From assembly GCA_004294265.1 (NCBI GenBank), contig REAG01000117.1, positions 540-64,539 on the forward strand: a stretch of DNA of 64,000 nucleotides, in the 5' to 3' direction. Both the position numbers and the translations under genes were made by a program. The stretch's first letter is position 1; each line of letters opens with the position of its first letter. This document shows positions 560 to 8,271 of the stretch, in pieces. A model generated the notes under the pieces. The model was not told the origin of the DNA, made no database searches, and was given only the letters and a program-made list of their open reading frames with translations. This DNA is from Cytophagales bacterium (GTDB lineage: Bacteria > Bacteroidota > Bacteroidia > Cytophagales > UBA9547).

Positions 560-3500
560 ATGACAACGCAACAATATATTGACAATATAAACAAACGCTA
601 CAAACTTGGAAATGCAACCGAGCATACTTTTCGTGGCGATTTGCAACAACTTTTAGAAAGTTTAGTGCCTGAAATAAGAGCGACCAACGAACCTAAAAGA
701 CAATCTTGCGGAGCTCCTGACTACATTCTGACCAAAAAAGAAATTCCAGTTGGTTTTATAGAAGCCAAAGACATTGGCGACAAAGACCTTGAAGGAGCTA
801 AGAAAACTGGAAATAAAGAACAGTTCGACCGCTACAAGGCTTCGCTAAACAACTTAATTTTTACCGATTATTTAGATTTCCATTTATATATTGATGGCGT
901 TTTTATTACAAAAATCGCTATTGCTGAAATTTCTCCCTCTCCTTTGGGGAGAGCTGGAGAGGGGGTTATCGTTCCCCTGCCCAACAACTTTGCAACTTTT
1001 ACAAATCTCATCAAAGATTTTTGTACACACGTTGGGCAGACCATAAAAAGTTCAAAAAAACTAGCAGAAATAATGGCAGGCAAAGCCAGATTACTTTCGG
1101 ATGTGATTGAAAAATCTTTAACCAGTGACGAGACCCACAACGAAGACAGTACCTTAAAAGATCAAATGATTGCTTTTAGGCAAATATTAATTCATGATAT
1201 TACCCCCAAAGGTTTTGCCGATGTGTATGCCCAAACCATCGCTTATGGTATGTTTGCAGCTCGTTTGCACGACCCAACTTTGGAGACTTTTAGCAGACAA
1301 GAAGCAGCAGAACTTATTCCAAAATCAAATCCGTTTTTACGCAAACTGTTTGGCTACATAGCTGGTCCTGACATTGACGACCGCATAAAATGGATTGTAG
1401 ATAGTTTGGTAGATATATTTTTGGCTTGCAATGTTGAAGAAATTTTAAAAAACTACGGAAAGCAATTCACCTCCTCCTCTGGGGGAGGACGGGAGGGGGC
1501 TGACCCCATCATCCATTTTTACGAAACATTTTTGAGTGAATACGACCCAGCACTAAGAAAAGCAAAAGGCGTTTGGTACACACCGCAACCCGTAGTAAAT
1601 TTTATTGTACGGGCTGTAGATGATATTTTAAAAACAGAATTTGATTTACCACAAGGGCTTGCTGACACCAGCAAAACAAAAATAAAGGTTGATATTCAAG
1701 GCAAAAAAACAGAACAGGAAGTTCATAAAGTGCAAATATTGGACCCTGCCACGGGTACAGGAACTTTTCTTGCCGAAGTAGTAAAACATATTCATAAAAA
1801 GTTTGAAGGACAAAAAGGGATTTGGAGCAATTATGTAGAAAACGATTTATTGCCACGAATTAATGGTTTTGAGCTACTTATGGCAAGTTACGCCATGGCA
1901 CATTTAAAATTAGATTTGCTTTTAAATGAAACAGGTTATTCTCCCTCCCCGATGGGGAGGGCTGGGGTGGGGTTTCAACGCCTTCGAGTTTATCTTACTA
2001 ATAGTTTAGAAGAAAGCCACCCAGATACAGGAACTTTATTTGCAAATTGGTTAAGCACAGAAGCCAATGAAGCCAATCATATCAAGAGAGAAACGCCCGT
2101 AATGTGTGTCATTGGCAATCCGCCTTATGCAGTAAGTTCTACAAACAAAGCAACATGGATAGAAAAACTTACAAAAGATTATAAAAAAGGGCTGAACGAA
2201 CGAAATATTCAACCGCTTTCGGATGATTATATTAAGTTTATTCGTTTTGGGCAGCATTTTGTAGAAAAAAACGGCAGTGGAATTTTGGCATACATTTCTA
2301 ATAATAGTTTTTTGGATGGTATTATTCACCGCCAAATGCGTAAGAATTTATTAGAATGTTTTGACACTATTTATATATTGGATTTACATGGGAATATTAA
2401 GAAAAAAGAAATTTGTACCGATGGAAGTCCAGATCAAAATGTTTTTGACATTATGCAAGGTGTTTCTATCAATATTTTTGTAAAAACAGGCAAGAAAAAG
2501 CAAGGCGAATTAGGCAAAGTTTTACATATTGATTTGCAAGGAAAACGACAATTCAAGTTTGATTTTTTGCTCAATAATTCATTAAAATCTGTTAGTTGGA
2601 ATAATTTACAAAACGACAATTTAAGTTATTTTTTTAGTAATAAACAATTTGATACAAGTGGCGTGTATGAAAATGGATTTAAGCTGAATGAATTGTTCGG
2701 TGAAAACAACGCAGGTTTAGTAACTTCGAGAGATAGTTTTATAATTCAAAACTCTGAAAATGAAGTAAAAAAAACGACACAAGATTTTGCTTACTTAGAC
2801 TCTGAAATTGCACGCAGAAAATACAATTTAGGAAAAGATAGCCGAGATTGGACAGTTAAAAACGCTCAAAAAGATTTAATTGCCCATAATCTTGATACTC
2901 AAAATATCAAACCCATTTTATACAGACCATTTGACATAAAATATTTGTATTATACTGCCAAATCCAAAGGATTTATTTCATACCCAAGAAACGAAATATT
3001 AAGGCATTTGAAAAATGATAATTTTGCTTTAATAACAACAAGACTTTTAAGTTCAACTTTATTCAGCCACTCTTTTATAAGTAATATTTTTGTAGATAAA
3101 TGTACGATTTCTAATCGAGGAAAAGAAACTAATTATGTATTCCCACTTTATCTTTATCCAAAACCAATAAATGAAATTCAAGAAGATGATTTTCAAAACA
3201 AATTGGCTCGATTGGAAGAATCTAAAGTGATTTATGAAAGTGCAAAAAAAGCGTTTATTCAAGTTCAAAAAATGTTTTCGGCAGTTTCAAATCCAGATAA
3301 AGAATTACTTACTTATTATAATCAACAGGTTAAAAACTTAAAGAAACTAGAACTTGAAGTAGAAAAATTTAAAATTCAGCTAGCAAATTCACAAGCAAAA
3401 CCATTATTTGAATCTGAAATTAAACGTAAACCCAACTTAAACCTAGCAATTATAAAACAAATAGCAGATGCGCTAGGCATACCCACCATGTTACCCAACG

Positions 3501-4021
3501 GAGAAGCCCCCTTCGGGGGTTTGGGGGCTCTTGATATTTTAGATTATATCTATGCCGTTTTACATTCGCCAACATACCGAGAAAAATACAAAGAATTTTT
3601 AAAAATAGATTTCCCTAAAATACCTTATCCAAAAACCTATAAGGTCTTCGAAGACCTTATAGGTTTGGGCAGCCAATTAAGACAAATCCATTTATTAGAA
3701 AGCCCAACAATTGAAAAATACATAACGCAATATCCCGAAGATGGAAACAATGTAATTACAAAACCACGTTTTTCTCCCTCTCCTTCGGGGAGGGCTGGGG
3801 TGGGGCTTGTTTATATAAACGAAACTCAATATTTCGATAATGTTCCACAAATAGCTTGGGATTTTTATATTGGCGGTTATCAACCCGCCCAAAAATGGCT
3901 CAAAGACCGCAAGGATAAAAAATTAGAATTTGATGATATTTTGCATTATCAAAAAATCATAGTTGCTTTGACAGAAACGGACAGATTGATGAAAGAAATT
4001 GATAATATTGAGATTGAATAA
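560..4021 (+). CDS. Type IIG single-polypeptide restriction-modification enzyme (N-terminal PD-ExK nuclease, gamma-class N6-adenine methyltransferase, C-terminal specificity domain)
   Basis: Nuclease-like motif GAPDYIL...GFIEAKD. AdoMet motif I ILDPATGTGTFL and catalytic motif IV VIGNPPYAVSS. C-terminal YIYAVLHSPTYREKYKEFLKIDFPKIPYP...IGGYQPAQKWLKDRKDKKLEFDDILHYQKIIVAL resembles the Type ISP/IIG specificity-domain tail. The 1153-codon ORF is intact. Confidence 0.85.
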   Translation: MTTQQYIDNINKRYKLGNATEHTFRGDLQQLLESLVPEIRATNEPKRQSCGAPDYILTKKEIPVGFIEAKDIGDKDLEGAKKTGNKEQFDRYKASLNNLIFTDYLDFHLYIDGVFITKIAIAEISPSPLGRAGEGVIVPLPNNFATFTNLIKDFCTHVGQTIKSSKKLAEIMAGKARLLSDVIEKSLTSDETHNEDSTLKDQMIAFRQILIHDITPKGFADVYAQTIAYGMFAARLHDPTLETFSRQEAAELIPKSNPFLRKLFGYIAGPDIDDRIKWIVDSLVDIFLACNVEEILKNYGKQFTSSSGGGREGADPIIHFYETFLSEYDPALRKAKGVWYTPQPVVNFIVRAVDDILKTEFDLPQGLADTSKTKIKVDIQGKKTEQEVHKVQILDPATGTGTFLAEVVKHIHKKFEGQKGIWSNYVENDLLPRINGFELLMASYAMAHLKLDLLLNETGYSPSPMGRAGVGFQRLRVYLTNSLEESHPDTGTLFANWLSTEANEANHIKRETPVMCVIGNPPYAVSSTNKATWIEKLTKDYKKGLNERNIQPLSDDYIKFIRFGQHFVEKNGSGILAYISNNSFLDGIIHRQMRKNLLECFDTIYILDLHGNIKKKEICTDGSPDQNVFDIMQGVSINIFVKTGKKKQGELGKVLHIDLQGKRQFKFDFLLNNSLKSVSWNNLQNDNLSYFFSNKQFDTSGVYENGFKLNELFGENNAGLVTSRDSFIIQNSENEVKKTTQDFAYLDSEIARRKYNLGKDSRDWTVKNAQKDLIAHNLDTQNIKPILYRPFDIKYLYYTAKSKGFISYPRNEILRHLKNDNFALITTRLLSSTLFSHSFISNIFVDKCTISNRGKETNYVFPLYLYPKPINEIQEDDFQNKLARLEESKVIYESAKKAFIQVQKMFSAVSNPDKELLTYYNQQVKNLKKLELEVEKFKIQLANSQAKPLFESEIKRKPNLNLAIIKQIADALGIPTMLPNGEAPFGGLGALDILDYIYAVLHSPTYREKYKEFLKIDFPKIPYPKTYKVFEDLIGLGSQLRQIHLLESPTIEKYITQYPEDGNNVITKPRFSPSPSGRAGVGLVYINETQYFDNVPQIAWDFYIGGYQPAQKWLKDRKDKKLEFDDILHYQKIIVALTETDRLMKEIDNIEIE
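932..967. repeat. in-frame GC-rich palindromic insert, copy 1 (encodes SPSPLGRAGEGV)
   Basis: tctccctctcctttggggagagctggagagggggtt. Exactly 12 codons (codons 125-136), GC-rich in an AT-rich gene, with a pyrimidine arm and purine arm that can pair. Confidence 0.8.
1469..1504. repeat. in-frame GC-rich insert, copy 2, diverged (encodes TSSSGGGREGAD)
   Basis: acctcctcctctgggggaggacgggagggggctgac. It has the same CT-run followed by G-run architecture as copies 1, 3 and 5, but is diverged and its boundaries are approximate. Confidence 0.55.
1940..1975. repeat. in-frame GC-rich palindromic insert, copy 3 (encodes SPSPMGRAGVGF)
   Basis: tctccctccccgatggggagggctggggtggggttt. Exactly 12 codons (461-472). 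CCCTCCCC and GGGGAGGG form an 8-bp stem around the 3-nt loop gat. It lies between methyltransferase motifs I and IV. Confidence 0.85.
3500..3529. repeat. in-frame GC-rich palindromic insert, copy 4, short variant (encodes GEAPFGGLGA)
   Basis: ggagaagcccccttcgggggtttgggggct. 10 codons. CCCCC-ttc-GGGGG forms a hairpin, with an alternative AGCCCCC/GGGGGCT pairing. It resembles the 3' half of copy 5. Confidence 0.55.
3773..3808. repeat. in-frame GC-rich palindromic insert, copy 5 (encodes SPSPSGRAGVGL)
   Basis: tctccctctccttcggggagggctggggtggggctt. Exactly 12 codons (1072-1083), in the same orientation and reading frame as copies 1 and 3. Confidence 0.85.
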
Positions 4022-4115: not shown

Positions 4116-4730
4116 ATGTCTTTAGAAGAAAATGAAAAAAAACGTTTTTTATTTCTGAAATATCTATACACTCAATCAAGTGGAGATGCTACCTATATTT
4201 TTATAATTAGTGAAGTTGGAAAAGAATTAGACTATGACGAAGTTAAACTTATAACTTCTTATCTTTTTGAAGAAAAATTAGTTAAATTCCCAGCTCTTGG
4301 TGGAGTTATTTCAATAACACACCAGGGAATAAAAGAAGTAGAAAATACAATTCGAAATCCAATAAAGAATACAGAACAAATTTTGCATTATAACACTATA
4401 AATATAGGGACAATGAATAATTCTTCATTGCAACAATCAACAACTAATTCAGGCATATCATTTGTGTATAACGAACAAAAATCTTTAGAATTAAATGATA
4501 TAATCAAATTACTAAAGGATATAAAGGATAGTTTTGAACTATCAAATGACTTACAAAATGAACTAATAACTGAACTTCAAACTATTGAATTACAATCTAA
4601 ATCAGTTAAACCTAAAAACATAATTATTTATGAATCTTTAAAAACCATTAGGACAATTCTGGAATCAGTTGCAAGTAACGCAATAGCTCCTTTAATTATT
4701 GACCGAATTACTGCACTTCTTTGTAGCTAA
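4116..4730 (+). CDS. hypothetical protein, 204 aa, function unknown
   Basis: Clean ORF 95 nt downstream of the RM gene on the same strand. The N-terminal ~75 aa look winged-helix-like (KKRFLFLKYLY...EVGKELDYDEVKLITSYLFEEKLVKF...ISITHQGIKEVE). The C-terminal half is helical and repeat-like. No family was recognised. Confidence 0.55.
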   Translation: MSLEENEKKRFLFLKYLYTQSSGDATYIFIISEVGKELDYDEVKLITSYLFEEKLVKFPALGGVISITHQGIKEVENTIRNPIKNTEQILHYNTINIGTMNNSSLQQSTTNSGISFVYNEQKSLELNDIIKLLKDIKDSFELSNDLQNELITELQTIELQSKSVKPKNIIIYESLKTIRTILESVASNAIAPLIIDRITALLCS

Positions 4731-5071: not shown

Positions 5072-6073
5072 ATGCAATACATACAAGAAATAAAACAAAT
5101 ATTAGCCAATGCAAGGCAAAAAGCCTACACCGCAATCAATGCTGCTATGACAGAAGCATATTGGAAGATAGGCGAAAAAATAGTGCTGGAAGAGCAAAAC
5201 GGAAAAAATCGTGCAGCGTATGGTGAAAGTATTTTAAAAGATTTGTCTATTGCATTAACACAAGAGTTTGGTAAAGGGTTTTCGTATGCTAACCTACGTA
5301 ATTTTAGACAATTTTATTTAACTTATCCCGACCCAGAGATTTGCTACGCAGTGCGTAGCAAATTGACATGGACGCATCATCGTTTGATAATGAGAGTAGA
5401 AAATACGGATGCTAGAAATTATTATCTAAATGAATGTGAAAATCAAAATTGGAGCTCTAGGGTGTTGGAACGAAATATTAATACTTTTTACTATCAAAGA
5501 ATTTTATCTACCAATGCACAATTTCCTGCAACACAGATAAGGGAAATTGAAACTCAAAATATTAAAGATTTCATTAAAGACCCTTACATATTTGAGTTTT
5601 TAAATATAGAACAACCCCATTATGCAAAAGAGCTAGAAATAGAAACCGCATTGATTGAAAATCTACAATCGTTTTTGTTAGAATTAGGCAAAGGTTTTTC
5701 GTTTGTCGCAAAGCAATTCAGAATAAGCACAGAAACAAGTCATTTTTATATAGACCTGGTTTTTTACAATTACATATTGAAATGTTTTGTAATCTTCGAC
5801 TTGAAAACCACCAAATTAACCCATCAAGACGTGGGACAGTTAGATATGTATGTGAGAATGTTTGACGACTTGAAAAAGCAAGACAACGACAACCCCAGTA
5901 TTGGCATCTTACTCTGTGCCGAAAAAGATGAAACCGTAGTGAAATATTCGGTATTGGCAGAAAATAAACAGCTTTTTGCCACCAAATATTTACCTTTCTT
6001 ACCTACCGAGCAAGAACTGATTGCCGAAATTGAAAGGGAAAAACTAAGCATCAAACAAAAACAAAATGAGTAG
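5072..6073 (+). CDS. YhcG-like PD-(D/E)XK nuclease family protein (DUF1016)
   Basis: N-terminal ARQKAYTAINAAMTEAYWKIGEKIV..EQNGKNRAAYGESILKDLS, central IKDPYIFEFL and the nuclease core ELGKGFSFVAKQFRI...YIDLVFYNYILKCFVIFDLKTTKLTHQDVGQLDMYV are characteristic of YhcG/DUF1016. Confidence 0.85.
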   Translation: MQYIQEIKQILANARQKAYTAINAAMTEAYWKIGEKIVLEEQNGKNRAAYGESILKDLSIALTQEFGKGFSYANLRNFRQFYLTYPDPEICYAVRSKLTWTHHRLIMRVENTDARNYYLNECENQNWSSRVLERNINTFYYQRILSTNAQFPATQIREIETQNIKDFIKDPYIFEFLNIEQPHYAKELEIETALIENLQSFLLELGKGFSFVAKQFRISTETSHFYIDLVFYNYILKCFVIFDLKTTKLTHQDVGQLDMYVRMFDDLKKQDNDNPSIGILLCAEKDETVVKYSVLAENKQLFATKYLPFLPTEQELIAEIEREKLSIKQKQNE

Positions 6074-8042: not shown

Positions 8043-8271
8043 GGGAACCTCTAAAAACCCCAATATTATTTTTAAAAACCCCACCCAAACCCTCCCCAAG
8101 TGAGAGCAATGTCGTTAAGTTAAGATGCTCGAAAGTCCCTCCCCCTTTTTGGATTCTGCGTCTTCGTAGCAGAACTTGGATTTAGGGAGGGGTTTAATGA
8201 AAGTAATTTCTTTAACTTAACGACATTGCAAGTGAGAGAGCTTCATCGGAATTGAATTTTTAGGAGTTCAC
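8043..8271 (+). repeat. MITE-like GC-box element, composite/nested long copy (229 bp)
   Basis: Its ends match the 119-bp family (gggaacctctaaaaacc...tttttaggagttcac). The interior is a 122-bp unit bounded by an 18-bp perfect inverted repeat (8106-8123 / 8212-8229) and a 10-bp direct repeat caagtgagag (8097-8106 / 8229-8238). That unit carries an inverted second copy of the family core hairpin. Confidence 0.75.

What the first reader, a model, noticed from the sequence alone, without database searches (positions are those of the whole stretch)
932..3808. Five in-frame GC-rich palindromic mini-insertions inside an intact Type IIG restriction-modification gene
**Seen in the sequence.**
- The 1153-codon ORF is AT-rich, but five short, strongly GC-rich segments punctuate it: 932-967, ~1469-1504, 1940-1975, 3500-3529 and 3773-3808.
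- Each is a whole number of codons (10-12) and none introduces a stop.
- Three are near-identical 36-mers with consensus TCTCCCTCYCC-NNN-GGGGAGRGCTGGRGWGGGGNTT.
- Those three sit in the same orientation and the same reading frame, giving SPSP(L/M/S)GRAG(E/V)G(V/F/L). All six frames of the element are stop-free, so stop avoidance alone does not force this agreement.
- Each can fold as a hairpin, for example CCCTCCCC-gat-GGGGAGGG.
- They lie between recognisable modules rather than inside motifs. One is after the PD-ExK nuclease motif and one is before DPIIHFYETFL. One is between methyltransferase motif I (DPATGTGTF) and motif IV (NPPY), and two are in the C-terminal specificity region.

**Established knowledge.** Rickettsia palindromic elements and cyanobacterial small dispersed repeats are precedents for tiny repeats that insert in frame into functional genes.

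**Inference.**
- These look like a Bacteroidota counterpart colonising a defence gene, adding surface loops while leaving the enzyme intact.
- Alternatively, they could be RNA hairpins or G-tracts that throttle or phase-vary expression of a potentially toxic enzyme.
Basis: partly seen in the sequence, partly recalled or inferred. Interest (0 to 1): 0.85.

Follow-up and report, generated by a model that had tools for sequence, protein, structure and literature searches.

The report
Hairpin mini-repeats inside a restriction gene
Five short GC-rich hairpin repeats sit in frame inside an intact restriction-modification enzyme gene; they belong to widespread repeat families that invade many bacterial genes, and the same repeats also flank a small nuclease cassette (DUF559) that inserts, unspliced, into essential proteins.

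Summary
The 1153-codon Type IIG gene (560-4021) holds 5 of the window's 8 short GC-rich islands. Most homologues lack these segments, and all five fall in predicted loops.

Three segments are copies of a sharply bounded 32-nt unit (CTCCCTCCCC-TTC-GGGGAGGG-CT-GGGGWGGGG). That unit occurs in at least 120 loci from genomes of 29-71% GC, mostly Bacteroidota but also other phyla. It lies in intergenic DNA and inside many unrelated genes, housekeeping ones included. Segment 4 belongs to a second, 27-nt family. Segment 2 is a related variant whose dispersal is not shown.

The RPE-like reading is therefore supported, but the repeats are specific neither to defence genes nor to Bacteroidota. Phase variation is not supported.

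New here: the same units occur as inverted repeats flanking a ~0.45-kb DUF559 (Vsr-fold nuclease) cassette. That cassette sits in frame in IleRS, LeuRS-type, MetH and UvrD-type genes and in sites 4 or 5 of this enzyme family. Free-standing DUF559 genes carry similar flanking hairpins. Copies shared between homologues are 80-100% identical in DNA, while synonymous sites around them match only ~55%.

I infer that the repeats are partners or remnants of a nuclease-driven selfish element. No movement was observed, and how solo copies arise is unresolved.

The parts
560..4021 (+). Intact single-chain Type IIG restriction-modification gene (N-terminal PD-ExK nuclease, N6-adenine methyltransferase, C-terminal specificity domain). 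It hosts the five repeats.
   Evidence: - Pfam: Type_ISP_C, Eco57I, N6_Mtase, MmeI_Mtase.
- PADLOC: REase_MTase_IIG, 1115 bits.
- Solved relatives: LlaBIII, DrdV and LlaGI.
- Catalytic columns D54/E68/K70, DPATGTGTF and NPPY are invariant in 110-sequence alignment A4.
932..967 (+). Site 1: family-1 repeat (32-nt core 933-964), read as SPSPLGRAGEGV. It replaces a 4-residue beta-hairpin turn, for a net gain of 8 codons.
- Intact copies lie at the same site in L002B and L097; L135 has a decayed copy and L003 a variant.
- It lies in coil between E122-126 and E135-139.
1463..1501 (+). Site 2: family-1-like variant (unit 1470-1499, CCTCCTCC-TCT-GGGGGAGG-AC-GGGAGGGGG), read as QFTSSSGGGREGA, for a net gain of 8 codons.
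- 9 of 120 homologues are filled at this site; L001 has a decayed copy.
- The only other relative found is the upstream inverted repeat of a DUF559 cassette in L099.
- pLDDT is below 50 for residues 302-313.
1940..1975 (+). Site 3: family-1 repeat (core 1941-1972; it matches the consensus except in the loop), read as SPSPMGRAGVGF, for a net gain of 7 codons.
- L003, L211 and L212 carry same-frame copies at this site.
- L135 carries a copy in a different frame with different junctions, indicating an independent hit.
3504..3530 (+). Site 4: family-2 repeat (27-mer AAGCCCCC-TTC-GGGGGTTT-GGGGGCT, 26 of 27 bases match the consensus), read as (E)APFGGLGA(L). It is a near equal-length replacement of the usual FTNEKETxxxTFAP loop.
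   Evidence: - Its 23-mer has 73 exact matches in metagenome contigs, and the unit has sharp borders.
- Homologues L153 and L169 carry it at the same site with 29/30 and 30/30 nt identical.
3773..3808 (+). Site 5: family-1 repeat (core 3774-3805, a perfect match to the consensus), read as SPSPSGRAGVGL. It replaces a 4-residue turn, for a net gain of 8 codons.
- L212 carries the same copy with 34/36 nt identical, and L211 with 30/36 (counted from the alignment).
- It lies in coil between E1070-1073 and E1081-1085.

Best explanation
**What it is (shown).** The five segments are copies of miniature GC-rich hairpin repeats that have overwritten five loop-coding positions of an otherwise intact Type IIG enzyme gene. 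They are translated as Gly/Pro/Ser/Ala-rich loops.
- Three are a 32-nt unit (family 1).
- One is a 27-nt unit (family 2).
- One is a family-1-like variant.
- All share one design: a C-rich arm, a 3-nt loop, a G-rich arm, and a second G-rich arm that can pair with the C-arm instead.

**The association (shown).** These units are widespread in coding and non-coding DNA. They are also the inverted repeats that flank a ~0.45-kb cassette encoding a DUF559 (Vsr-fold PD-(D/E)xK) nuclease domain. That cassette is found free-standing and in frame inside host proteins.

**How it works (inferred).**
- Nuclease plus hairpin ends form a selfish unit. It spreads by nuclease-triggered repair or copying into tolerant loops.
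- It needs no intron or intein. All frames of the ends are open, and the usual frames encode flexible linkers.
- The solo copies in this gene are either non-autonomous partners moved or refreshed by such nucleases, or remnants of earlier cassette invasions.
- Repeated conversion from other copies would explain why some copies stay near-perfect in a 31% GC genome while others decay.
For: **Dispersed repeat**
- There are at least 120 genome loci with the 27-nt core pattern.
- A logo of 132 copies shows a 32-nt core with random flanks.
- 47 of 123 copies are internal to long ORFs from 113 Pfam families, and 33 of 123 lie in no ORF of 100 aa or more.
- Family 2 has 73 metagenome loci. 24 of its 79 copies are intragenic.

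**Insertion, not ancestral sequence**
- Most of the 120 homologues have short loops at these positions.
- The L002 paralogues have identical flanks. 13 nt in the empty copy are replaced by 37 nt in the filled one.
- L135 site 3 is in a different frame with different junctions.

**DNA-level conservation**
- Site 4 is 29/30 and 30/30 nt identical. In the rest of those genes, third-codon positions at identical residues match only 0.54 and 0.59 of the time.
- Sites 3 and 5 show the same pattern against L212.
- Decayed copies exist in L135 and L001.

**DUF559 link**
- 16 of 210 motif-selected loci hold a DUF559 domain.
- All 14 full-length hits have a GC hairpin unit within 130 nt, and 10 have one on both sides.
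- The inverted repeats are 22-37 nt, 84-96% complementary, and 424-460 nt apart.
- Hosts are IleRS, MetH and UvrD-type helicases, with no intein domains, plus LeuRS-type genes.
- About 10 of 120 homologues of this enzyme carry such cassettes at site 4 or 5. They come from three DUF559 lineages, each with its own repeat type.
- Four of four free-standing DUF559 genes, chosen by protein similarity alone, have hairpin repeats within about 150 nt.
- The frames of solo copies match the frames of the cassette ends.
- Vsr-fold nucleases are established homing endonucleases, and DUF559 is grouped with them (PMC3424549, PMC3239194).
Against: - No movement was observed. There is no strain-level filled/empty polymorphism apart from the mosaic L002 paralogues.
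- The 64-kb window holds no DUF559 gene and no other canonical repeat copy. The rest of this genome could not be examined.
- Solo copies far outnumber cassettes, and their flanks show no cassette remnant.
- In the IleRS cassettes the distance between the two repeat starts is 458-503 nt, always 2 mod 3. A simple deletion between the identical repeat termini would therefore break the frame.
- DUF559 clustering follows repeat type only loosely.
- The association could arise if cassettes merely land beside hairpins.
- Segment 2's dispersal is unproven.
- Both structure models have only moderate confidence (pLDDT 61 and 70).
Confidence: 0.6

Rival explanations
1. The mini-repeats are an independent REP/RPE-like repeat class, moved by some other unidentified enzyme or by repair accidents. 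DUF559 cassettes merely tend to insert next to such hairpins, or use them as landing sites, so the link is one of target preference rather than partnership.
For: - Solo copies vastly outnumber cassettes and have random flanks.
- No DUF559 gene lies in the window.
- The simple deletion route from cassette to solo copy fails the frame test.
- In L217 the flanking units are direct rather than inverted repeats.
Against: - Complete units sit on both sides of the cassette in inverted orientation, at a fixed distance, in unrelated hosts.
- Each DUF559 lineage in the enzyme family has its own repeat type.
- The frames of solo copies equal the frames of the cassette ends.
Confidence: 0.25
2. The host selects the segments as nucleic-acid structures (hairpin, G-quadruplex or slippery G-tracts) that slow translation or phase-vary expression of a potentially toxic restriction enzyme.
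For: - All five segments are in the same orientation, with the G-rich strand in the mRNA.
- Segments 3 and 5 carry a four-tract G-quadruplex motif.
- The element DNA is conserved beyond synonymous sites.
Against: - The longest homopolymer run is 5, too short for typical slipped-strand switching (established knowledge).
- Only 2 of the 5 segments have a G4 motif.
- The same units occur in housekeeping genes, in all frames, in both orientations and in intergenic DNA.
- Folding is only modestly better than in shuffled sequences.
Confidence: 0.06
3. The segments are ancestral or convergent flexible protein linkers of this enzyme family, not inserted DNA.
For: Some homologues only ~67% identical carry similar peptides at the same loops, including AT-rich versions.
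Against: - 78-111 of 120 homologues have the short loop at each site.
- The same nucleotide unit occurs in unrelated genes, in other frames and in intergenic DNA.
- Synonymous positions within the unit are conserved while the flanks are not.
- The AT-rich versions align base by base as decayed copies.
Confidence: 0.02
4. Assembly or sequencing artefact, such as chimeric reads or adapter-like sequence in metagenome bins.
For: Many of the loci come from metagenome-assembled genomes.
Against: - The units are also present in isolate and complete genomes, for example Flavobacterium branchiophilum, F. glaciei DSM 19728, Cnuella takakiae and Flavobacteriaceae GF1.
- They are always in frame within long ORFs.
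- Lineage-specific sub-variants and decayed copies exist.
- The GC content of the loci fits their stated taxa.
Confidence: 0.01

Closest known systems
Rickettsia palindromic elements (RPE)
   Same: Dispersed palindromic repeats found both between genes and in frame inside functional, even essential, genes. They add peptide segments at tolerated positions. (My own knowledge of Ogata et al. 2000; RPEs are mentioned in PMC1779305, which appeared in the list.)
   Different: - RPEs are roughly 100-150 bp and confined to Rickettsia. These units are 27-32 nt and occur across phyla and across genomes of 29-71% GC.
- No sequence relationship to RPEs was tested.
- No nuclease partner is known for RPEs. 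These units flank DUF559 cassettes.
Cyanobacterial small dispersed repeats (SDR)
   Same: Very small (about 20-30 nt) mobile-looking repeats without target duplications, found nested and within genes. (My own knowledge of Elhai et al. 2008; I did not retrieve the paper.)
   Different: Different sequences and taxa. As far as I know, no flanking-nuclease architecture has been described for SDRs.
REP/REPIN sequences and their RAYT transposases
   Same: Short hairpin repeats in many copies, plus a small nuclease-type gene that is itself flanked by copies of the repeat. Searches show the analogous layout here. REP background comes from PMC3733652, listed.
   Different: - REPs are extragenic and carry a GTAG or CGTC tag. 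These units have neither property.
- RAYTs are IS200-type Y1 transposases, whereas the gene here is a Vsr-fold PD-(D/E)xK nuclease.
- The nuclease cassette here also sits in frame inside host proteins.
Homing endonuclease genes in inteins and group I introns, including the Vsr-fold EDxHD family (I-Bth0305I)
   Same: A small nuclease gene that invades conserved sites of essential genes. The nuclease fold is related: the VSR/DUF559 clade in PMC3424549 and PMC3239194.
   Different: No self-splicing element is present. Pfam finds no intein or Hint domain, and the ORFs read straight through. The cassette stays in the host protein, bounded by hairpin repeats that encode linker-like peptides. Homing activity is not shown.
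MITEs and solo terminal repeats of insertion sequences
   Same: Short non-coding derivatives that outnumber the protein-coding parent element and share its terminal inverted repeats.
   Different: There is no target-site duplication. A single 27-32-nt unit stands alone rather than a pair of repeats around a spacer. Copies are in frame in coding DNA, and the parent encodes a nuclease domain without its own start or stop when it is embedded.

Membership tests
Type IIG (single-chain nuclease-methyltransferase) restriction-modification enzymes (host gene) | One polypeptide with a PD-(D/E)xK nuclease, a gamma-class N6-adenine methyltransferase (motif I, NPPY) and a target-recognition domain. | tested here: met
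   - Pfam: Type_ISP_C, Eco57I, N6_Mtase, MmeI_Mtase.
- PADLOC: REase_MTase_IIG, 1115 bits.
- Columns D54, E68, K70, D395-T400 and N520-Y523 are invariant.
- PDB relatives: DrdV, LlaBIII and LlaGI.
RPE-like in-frame palindromic repeats (as a kind) | The same short palindromic nucleotide unit recurs at many unrelated loci. | tested here: met
   At least 120 genome loci for family 1 and 73 metagenome loci for family 2. Both have sharply bounded cores.
RPE-like in-frame palindromic repeats (as a kind) | Copies lie inside intact ORFs in frame, as well as in intergenic DNA. | tested here: met
   - 47 of 123 family-1 copies are internal to ORFs of 250 aa or more, and 33 of 123 lie in no ORF of 100 aa or more.
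- 24 of 79 family-2 copies are internal to ORFs.
RPE-like in-frame palindromic repeats (as a kind) | Inserted peptides lie in loops or at the surface, away from catalytic motifs. | tested here: inconclusive
   In both AlphaFold models all five segments lie in coil between secondary-structure elements, and they coincide with indel-prone columns. However, the models have only moderate confidence (pTM 0.35-0.36) and solvent exposure was not computed.
RPE-like in-frame palindromic repeats (as a kind) | Multiple copies elsewhere in the same genome. | not testable with these tools
   Only 64 kb of this genome is available, and it holds no canonical copy outside the gene.
Rickettsia palindromic elements proper | Sequence homology to the RPE-1 to RPE-8 consensus sequences, in the genus Rickettsia. 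| not tested
   Size (27-32 nt against roughly 100-150 bp) and taxon differ. Not filed as a member.
REP/RAYT (REPIN) systems | A hairpin repeat with a conserved GTAG or CGTC tag, located outside genes. | tested here: not met
   The logo shows no such tag, and 38% of copies are intragenic.
REP/RAYT (REPIN) systems | An associated IS200/IS605-type Y1 transposase flanked by the repeats. | tested here: not met
   The flanked gene is DUF559/MTES_1575 (PF04480/PF18741), a PD-(D/E)xK fold. The layout resembles REP/RAYT but the enzyme class differs.
MITEs | Terminal inverted repeats plus a target-site duplication. | tested here: not met
   The flanks are random, with no duplication.
Intein-borne or intron-borne homing endonucleases | The nuclease gene is embedded in a self-splicing intein or intron. 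| tested here: not met
   Host ORFs of 860-1323 aa containing DUF559 show no intein or Hint Pfam domains at E <= 1e-6, and the reading frames are continuous. Splicing itself cannot be tested here.
Intein-borne or intron-borne homing endonucleases | The nuclease cleaves the empty allele and is copied in by repair. | not testable with these tools
   This needs biochemistry or genetics. The only support is the fold relationship to Vsr/EDxHD homing enzymes and invariant E/D/H columns in the inserted domains.
Phase-variable simple-sequence contingency loci | A homopolymer or short tandem tract long enough to slip (typically 7-8 units or more). | tested here: not met
   The longest G or C run in any segment is 5.
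G-quadruplex motifs | Four G3+ tracts separated by loops of 1-7 nt. | tested here: inconclusive
   The motif is present in segments 3 and 5 and in the family-1 consensus. It is absent from segments 1, 2 and 4. Folding into a G4 was not tested.

The most novel reading that the evidence does not exclude
DUF559 genes with their hairpin ends are a compact (~0.5 kb), previously unrecognised class of selfish element that invades essential and defence genes without any intron or intein.
- The Vsr-fold nuclease would nick or cut at hairpin or loop-coding targets. The T:G-containing stems of the repeats may be involved.
- The cassette would then be copied in.
- The GC-rich ends, open in all six frames, would be translated as flexible linkers, so that the host protein tolerates an extra domain in a loop.
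- The 27-32-nt solo repeats seen in this gene, and in hundreds of genes across phyla, would be the element's non-autonomous offspring or footprints, kept uniform by ongoing nuclease-triggered conversion.
Probability: 0.4. Interest if true: 0.85.

Novelty: new variant of a known kind. Interest (0 to 1): 0.72.

Why it matters
- **A second strategy for invading essential genes.** Besides self-splicing, selfish DNA could colonise conserved genes by bringing its own linker-coding ends and settling in tolerant loops.
- **A role for DUF559.** It would give a concrete function to a very large family of small 'endonuclease domain-containing' proteins of unknown role.
- **Explaining odd loops.** It would account for a common source of unexplained Gly/Pro-rich loops and GC spikes in proteins from AT-rich genomes. 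These affect annotation, alignment, phylogenetic 'signature indels' and structure prediction.
- **Permissive sites in this enzyme family.** The five loops are mapped as naturally permissive insertion sites, which is useful for engineering.
- **Open question made testable.** How 30-nt units stay nearly identical across phyla could now be addressed with a named candidate enzyme.

Tried and rejected
- **Rfam.** No credible family matched the gene region or the 8-kb intergenic structure.
- **Phage vector.** Only 11 hits in 2.9 million viral contigs, so there is no sign that phages carry the repeat.
- **Literature.**
  - The sequence search found only a herpesvirus G4 paper.
  - Peptide strings found nothing relevant.
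  - Keyword searches on in-frame palindromic elements found nothing on this family.
  - 25 papers mention DUF559, and none describes repeat-flanked or in-frame cassettes.
  - The library is incomplete, so absence of a paper is not proof of novelty.
- **Hairpin stability.** As evidence of selection it is weak, because C-run/G-run shuffles fold almost as well.
- **Defence-gene specificity.** Rejected: only 1 of about 120 family-1 loci is a homologue of this enzyme.
- **Segment 2 as a dispersed family.** There was one relative among 219 loci and none in viral contigs, so this is left open.
- **Solo copies from simple deletion.** Deletion between the identical 8-nt termini of the cassette's two repeats fails the frame test in the IleRS cassettes.
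- **Remnant at site 4.** The 'PTM' residues before segment 4 resemble the 'PTV' linker of the IleRS cassettes. Other solo copies show no such upstream conservation, so I treat this as coincidence.
- **DUF559 subtype versus repeat family.** They co-vary clearly within the enzyme family but only weakly between hosts.
- **Structure.** The first AlphaFold run, with 24 sequences, was poor (pLDDT 61). The second, with 110 sequences, reached only 70. Only secondary-structure placement was used.

Full report
**1. The observation**

The window is 30.7% GC. ORF 560..4021 (+) encodes an uninterrupted 1153-aa protein. A 30-nt sliding scan at GC >= 0.66 finds eight islands in the 64 kb. Five are in this gene, at 932-967, ~1469-1504, 1940-1975, ~3500-3529 and 3773-3808. 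One of the other three is a tRNA-Pro gene. Five of eight islands falling in 5.4% of the window has P = 2e-5.

The gene is 34.7% GC, or 33.0% without the segments, against 30.4% for the rest of the window.

**2. The host gene**

- Pfam finds Type_ISP_C, Eco57I, N6_Mtase and MmeI_Mtase.
- PADLOC gives REase_MTase_IIG at 1115 bits.
- A profile of the family matches the solved enzymes LlaBIII, DrdV and LlaGI over the methyltransferase and specificity parts.
- The PD-ExK residues (D54, E68, K70), motif I (DPATGTGTF) and NPPY are invariant in the alignments.

The enzyme therefore looks intact. This is an inference from sequence.

The neighbours are a hypothetical gene, a YhcG-type nuclease that matches the candidate defence family PDC-S02, then RecJ, TatD and cytochrome oxidase.

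**3. Insertions relative to homologues**

The 120 best homologues are 64-77% identical, and most are about 1040 aa long. I aligned them and measured each loop. The table compares the usual loop with the loop in the window.

| Site | Usual loop length (aa) | Homologues with the usual length | Length here (aa) |
|---|---|---|---|
| 1 | 4 | 102/120 | 12 |
| 2 | 5 | 111/120 | 13 |
| 3 | 5 | 99/120 | 12 |
| 4 | 17 | 89/120 | 18 |
| 5 | 4 | 78/120 | 12 |

So segments 1, 2, 3 and 5 are net gains of 8, 8, 7 and 8 codons that replace 4-5 ancestral codons. Segment 4 is a near equal-length replacement.

Two AlphaFold models (pLDDT 61 and 70, pTM about 0.35) agree on the local placement:
- All five segments lie in coil between secondary-structure elements.
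- Sites 1 and 5 are beta-hairpin turns.
- Sites 2, 3 and 4 have pLDDT below 50.

I use only this local placement. Solvent exposure was not computed.

**4. What the segments are**

Most are Bacteroidota. Others are Alphaproteobacteria, Thermaceae, Desulfamplus, Cloacimonadales, Ignavibacteria, Melainabacteria, Burkholderiales and more. The GC content of those contigs (0.57-0.70 for the proteobacterial, Thermaceae and Gemmatimonadales ones) fits their stated taxa. Several groups have their own sub-variants. At least one high-GC hit (L076) lacks the G-rich tail and may be a chance match.

A logo of 132 copies shows a sharply bounded 32-nt core, CTCCCTC(C/T)CC-TT(C/T)-GGGGAGGG-CT-GGGG(T/A)GGGG. 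The flanks are random. There is no target duplication and no further inverted repeat.

- 47 of 123 copies lie at least 30 codons inside ORFs of 250 aa or more.
- 33 of 123 lie in no ORF of 100 aa or more.
- The host ORFs match 113 Pfam families, including class I tRNA synthetases, RsgA, urocanase, UvrD helicases and methyltransferases.
- Only one locus, L097, is a homologue of our enzyme.
- All six frames are open, yet one reading, PSPxGRAGxG, accounts for 23 of the 47 intragenic copies. That explains why the three window copies agree in frame.

*Family 2.* Segment 4's 23-mer has 73 exact matches in metagenome contigs. The unit is a sharply bounded 27-mer, AAGCCCCC-TTC-GGGGGTTT-GGGGGCTT. 24 of 79 copies are intragenic. 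The commonest reading, APFGGLGA, is the one used here.

*Shared design.* Both families have a C-arm, a 3-nt loop, and two alternative G-arms.

*Segment 2.* It has the same design. Apart from same-site copies in homologues, it has only one relative in the data held.

No Rfam family matches. Phage contigs rarely carry the unit.

**5. History in this gene family**

Codon alignments show the state of each site in the homologues for which I hold DNA.

| Site | Intact or near-intact copy | Variant | Decayed copy |
|---|---|---|---|
| 1 | window, L002B, L097 | L003, L153 | L135 |
| 2 | window, L136, L211 | - | L001 |
| 3 | window, L003, L211, L212 | - | L135 holds a degraded copy in another frame (see below) |
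| 4 | window, L153, L169 | - | - |
| 5 | window, L211, L212 | - | - |

At site 3, L135 holds the unit in another reading frame with different junctions. That indicates an independent hit on the same loop.

In L002, two mosaic paralogues differ at site 1. With identical flanks, 13 nt (CACCGACACGGGA) in one correspond to 37 nt carrying the unit in the other, a net +24 nt.

The element DNA is far better conserved than its surroundings:
- The site 4 copy is 29/30 nt identical in L153 and 30/30 in L169. Those proteins are 71% and 56% identical to ours, and third-codon positions at identical residues match only 0.54 and 0.59 of the time.
- Site 5 is 34/36 and site 3 is 32/36 identical in L212 (counted from the alignment).
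- Decayed copies, in contrast, sit at background identity: 22/36 at site 1 in L135 and 16/39 at site 2 in L001.

So copies are either kept uniform (by selection on the DNA or RNA, by recent arrival, or by conversion from other copies) or left to decay.

Other homologues carry different mini-elements in the same loops. Examples are RQAQGD..., NSPPLEGCPxGGVV (read as HPSKGGEF on the other strand), TPPFGHPSKGE and CFVPRSDG. These loops are general landing pads.

**6. The DUF559 link**

*In this enzyme family.* About ten of the 120 homologues carry a 160-240-aa insertion at site 4 or 5. It is a DUF559/MTES_1575 domain bracketed by mini-element peptides read from opposite strands.

*In the motif-selected loci.* An HMM of these domains hit 16 of the 210 loci that had been chosen only by the short DNA motifs. 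The junctions show one recurring layout, all in one reading frame with the host:
- a mini-element in antisense orientation,
- then 40-100 nt,
- then the DUF559 domain of about 115 aa,
- then 40-90 nt,
- then a mini-element in sense orientation.

*Formal repeat detection*:

| Locus | Arm length (nt) | Complementarity | Distance between arms (nt) |
|---|---|---|---|
| L201 | 27 | 89% | 437 |
| L206 | 22 | 95% | 437 |
| L189 | 22 | 91% | 424 |
| L026 | 37 | 84% | 460 |
| L211 (P0068, site 4 of this enzyme family) | 23 | 96% | 427 |

*Hosts.*
- IleRS: L175, L191, L198, L201 and L206.
- MetH: L189.
- UvrD-type helicases: L099 and L106.
- LeuRS-type synthetases: L026 and L071. Here the two 'sites' seen are the two ends of one cassette. 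The LeuRS label rests on the Pfam hits plus the TTRPDT motif, and is my inference.
- None of the eight host ORFs scanned has an intein or Hint domain.

*Which repeats flank the cassette.* Family 2 in IleRS and MetH. Family 1 in the LeuRS-type genes. A segment-2-like unit plus family 1 in the helicases.

*Adjacency.* All 14 full-length DUF559 hits have a GC hairpin unit within 130 nt, and 10 have one on both sides.

*Lineages.* Three DUF559 lineages, each with its own repeat type, have entered this enzyme family.

*Free-standing genes.* The inserted domains are 43-62% identical to a very large set of free-standing 110-180-aa DUF559 proteins from Flavobacteriia, Neisseria and others. I picked four of these by protein similarity alone. 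All four have hairpin repeats within about 150 nt, and three have them on both sides. The Neisseria one has a family-1-like unit, CTCTCTCCCC-GTG-GGGAGAGAG-CT-AGAGAGAGGG.

*Catalytic residues.* Invariant E, D, G, H and R columns in the inserted domains suggest a maintained active site.

**7. Mechanism**

*Shown:*
- These are dispersed repeat families.
- They lie in frame at loop positions.
- Their DNA is conserved beyond that of the surrounding gene.
- They are physically associated with DUF559 as its flanking repeats.

*Inferred:*
- DUF559 plus its hairpin ends is a selfish unit. DUF559 is grouped with Vsr and with the Vsr-fold homing endonuclease I-Bth0305I (PMC3424549; PMC3239194). A homing-type route, in which the nuclease cuts and repair copies the element in, is therefore the most economical proposal.
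- The ends are open in all frames. In their usual frames they encode Gly/Pro/Ser/Ala-rich peptides, which would act as linkers. That would make splicing unnecessary.
- Solo copies share the frames of the cassette ends: sense PSPxGRAGxG or APFGGLGA, and antisense P(S/T)PALPxGEG or SPQTPEGG. This fits an origin from, or co-mobilisation with, cassettes.

*Unresolved:*
- How solo copies arise. A simple deletion between the identical termini of the two repeats would shift the frame, because the spacing is 2 mod 3 in all four IleRS cassettes. These four may descend from a single insertion.
- Whether the nuclease acts on the hairpins at all.

*Speculation:* the family-2 stem, and about a quarter of family-1 stems, contain a T:G pair. 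That is the lesion Vsr recognises.

**8. Why five copies in this gene**

The rest of the window has none, and no DUF559 gene lies in the window. Homologues show the same loops hit repeatedly. One, P0068, has all five sites filled, including a cassette.

The likeliest reading is that this horizontally mobile, loop-rich enzyme family is a frequent and tolerant target. It would have accumulated copies through both inheritance and exchange between homologues, given the mosaic paralogues seen. I could not test whether the host genome holds other copies.

**9. Comparison and novelty**

It is not a member of those families, nor of REP/RAYT, MITEs or intein-borne homing genes. Defining features of each were tested and not met (see the membership table).

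I found no description of these two repeat families, nor of repeat-flanked in-frame DUF559 cassettes, in the searchable literature. That library is incomplete.

I rate it a new variant of a known kind, with interest 0.72.

Noticed in passing
window 8060-8245, minus strand: The intergenic region between convergent genes holds a ~150-nt nested palindrome that folds strongly (RNA MFE -60.9 kcal/mol, z = -4.9).
- It has an 18-bp outer stem (GCAATGTCGTTAAGTTAA and its complement).
- Inside that is a CCCCTCCC...GGGGGAGGG stem.
- It is followed by GGGGAGGGTTTGGGTGGGG plus T5, a G-tract motif like that of family 1.
- There is no Rfam match, and the 18-mer occurs nowhere else in the window.
- It may be a nested repeat or a terminator.
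   Followed up: partly
homologues P0026, P0028, P0037, P0061, P0070, P0076, P0112 and others (alignment): The same five loops carry several other GC-rich mini-element types in other homologues: RQAQGD(S)KFE or VLRQAQDDSPT, NSPPLEGCPxGGVV (HPSKGGEF on the other strand), TTPPFGHPSKGE, and CEERSNPNNTTKDCFVPRSDGD. This points to a larger zoo of in-frame palindromic repeats.
   Followed up: partly
L097:2893-3942: The closest N-terminal relative (93% identical over 326 aa) has an extra 7-residue insertion, NLSRLGG, inside the PD-ExK nuclease region, between the PDY and EAK motifs.
   Followed up: no
L002:2147-5587 and L002:10001-13459: One contig carries two paralogues of this enzyme. They share blocks of 100% identical DNA separated by diverged blocks, mainly in the specificity region. 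This suggests gene conversion or specificity-domain swapping between copies.
   Followed up: partly
window ~3170-3390 (aa ~870-944): A subgroup of homologues, including this gene, has a ~75-residue insertion in the specificity domain. It is predicted as two long helices (H870-908 and H914-944) and is absent from the ~1040-aa majority.
   Followed up: no
window 4116-4730 and 5072-6073: Downstream of the enzyme gene lie a 204-aa ORF with no family match and a YhcG/DUF1016 PD-(D/E)xK nuclease that matches the PADLOC candidate defence family PDC-S02. Together with the enzyme they may form a small defence cluster.
   Followed up: partly
L148:69-289 and L161:139-503: Family-2 units also occur as tandem arrays, with three copies at a 99-nt period in L148 and at a ~170-nt period in L161. 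The spacers between them are conserved.
   Followed up: no
L219 (Neisseria sicca CP059566) and L095: Free-standing DUF559 genes in Neisseria-type DNA are accompanied by a family-1-like unit (CTCTC(TC)CCC-GTG-GGAGAG...). They lie among sequences that resemble DNA-uptake sequences (GTCGTCTGAAAA).
   Followed up: no
L026, L066, L071 (LeuRS-type genes): A third loop (alignment column ~732) is occupied in all three orthologues by different variants: SPSPLGRAGER, SPPERGQGGE and TPPFGGQGG. L066 has only a solo antisense unit where the other two have a full DUF559 cassette.
   Followed up: partly
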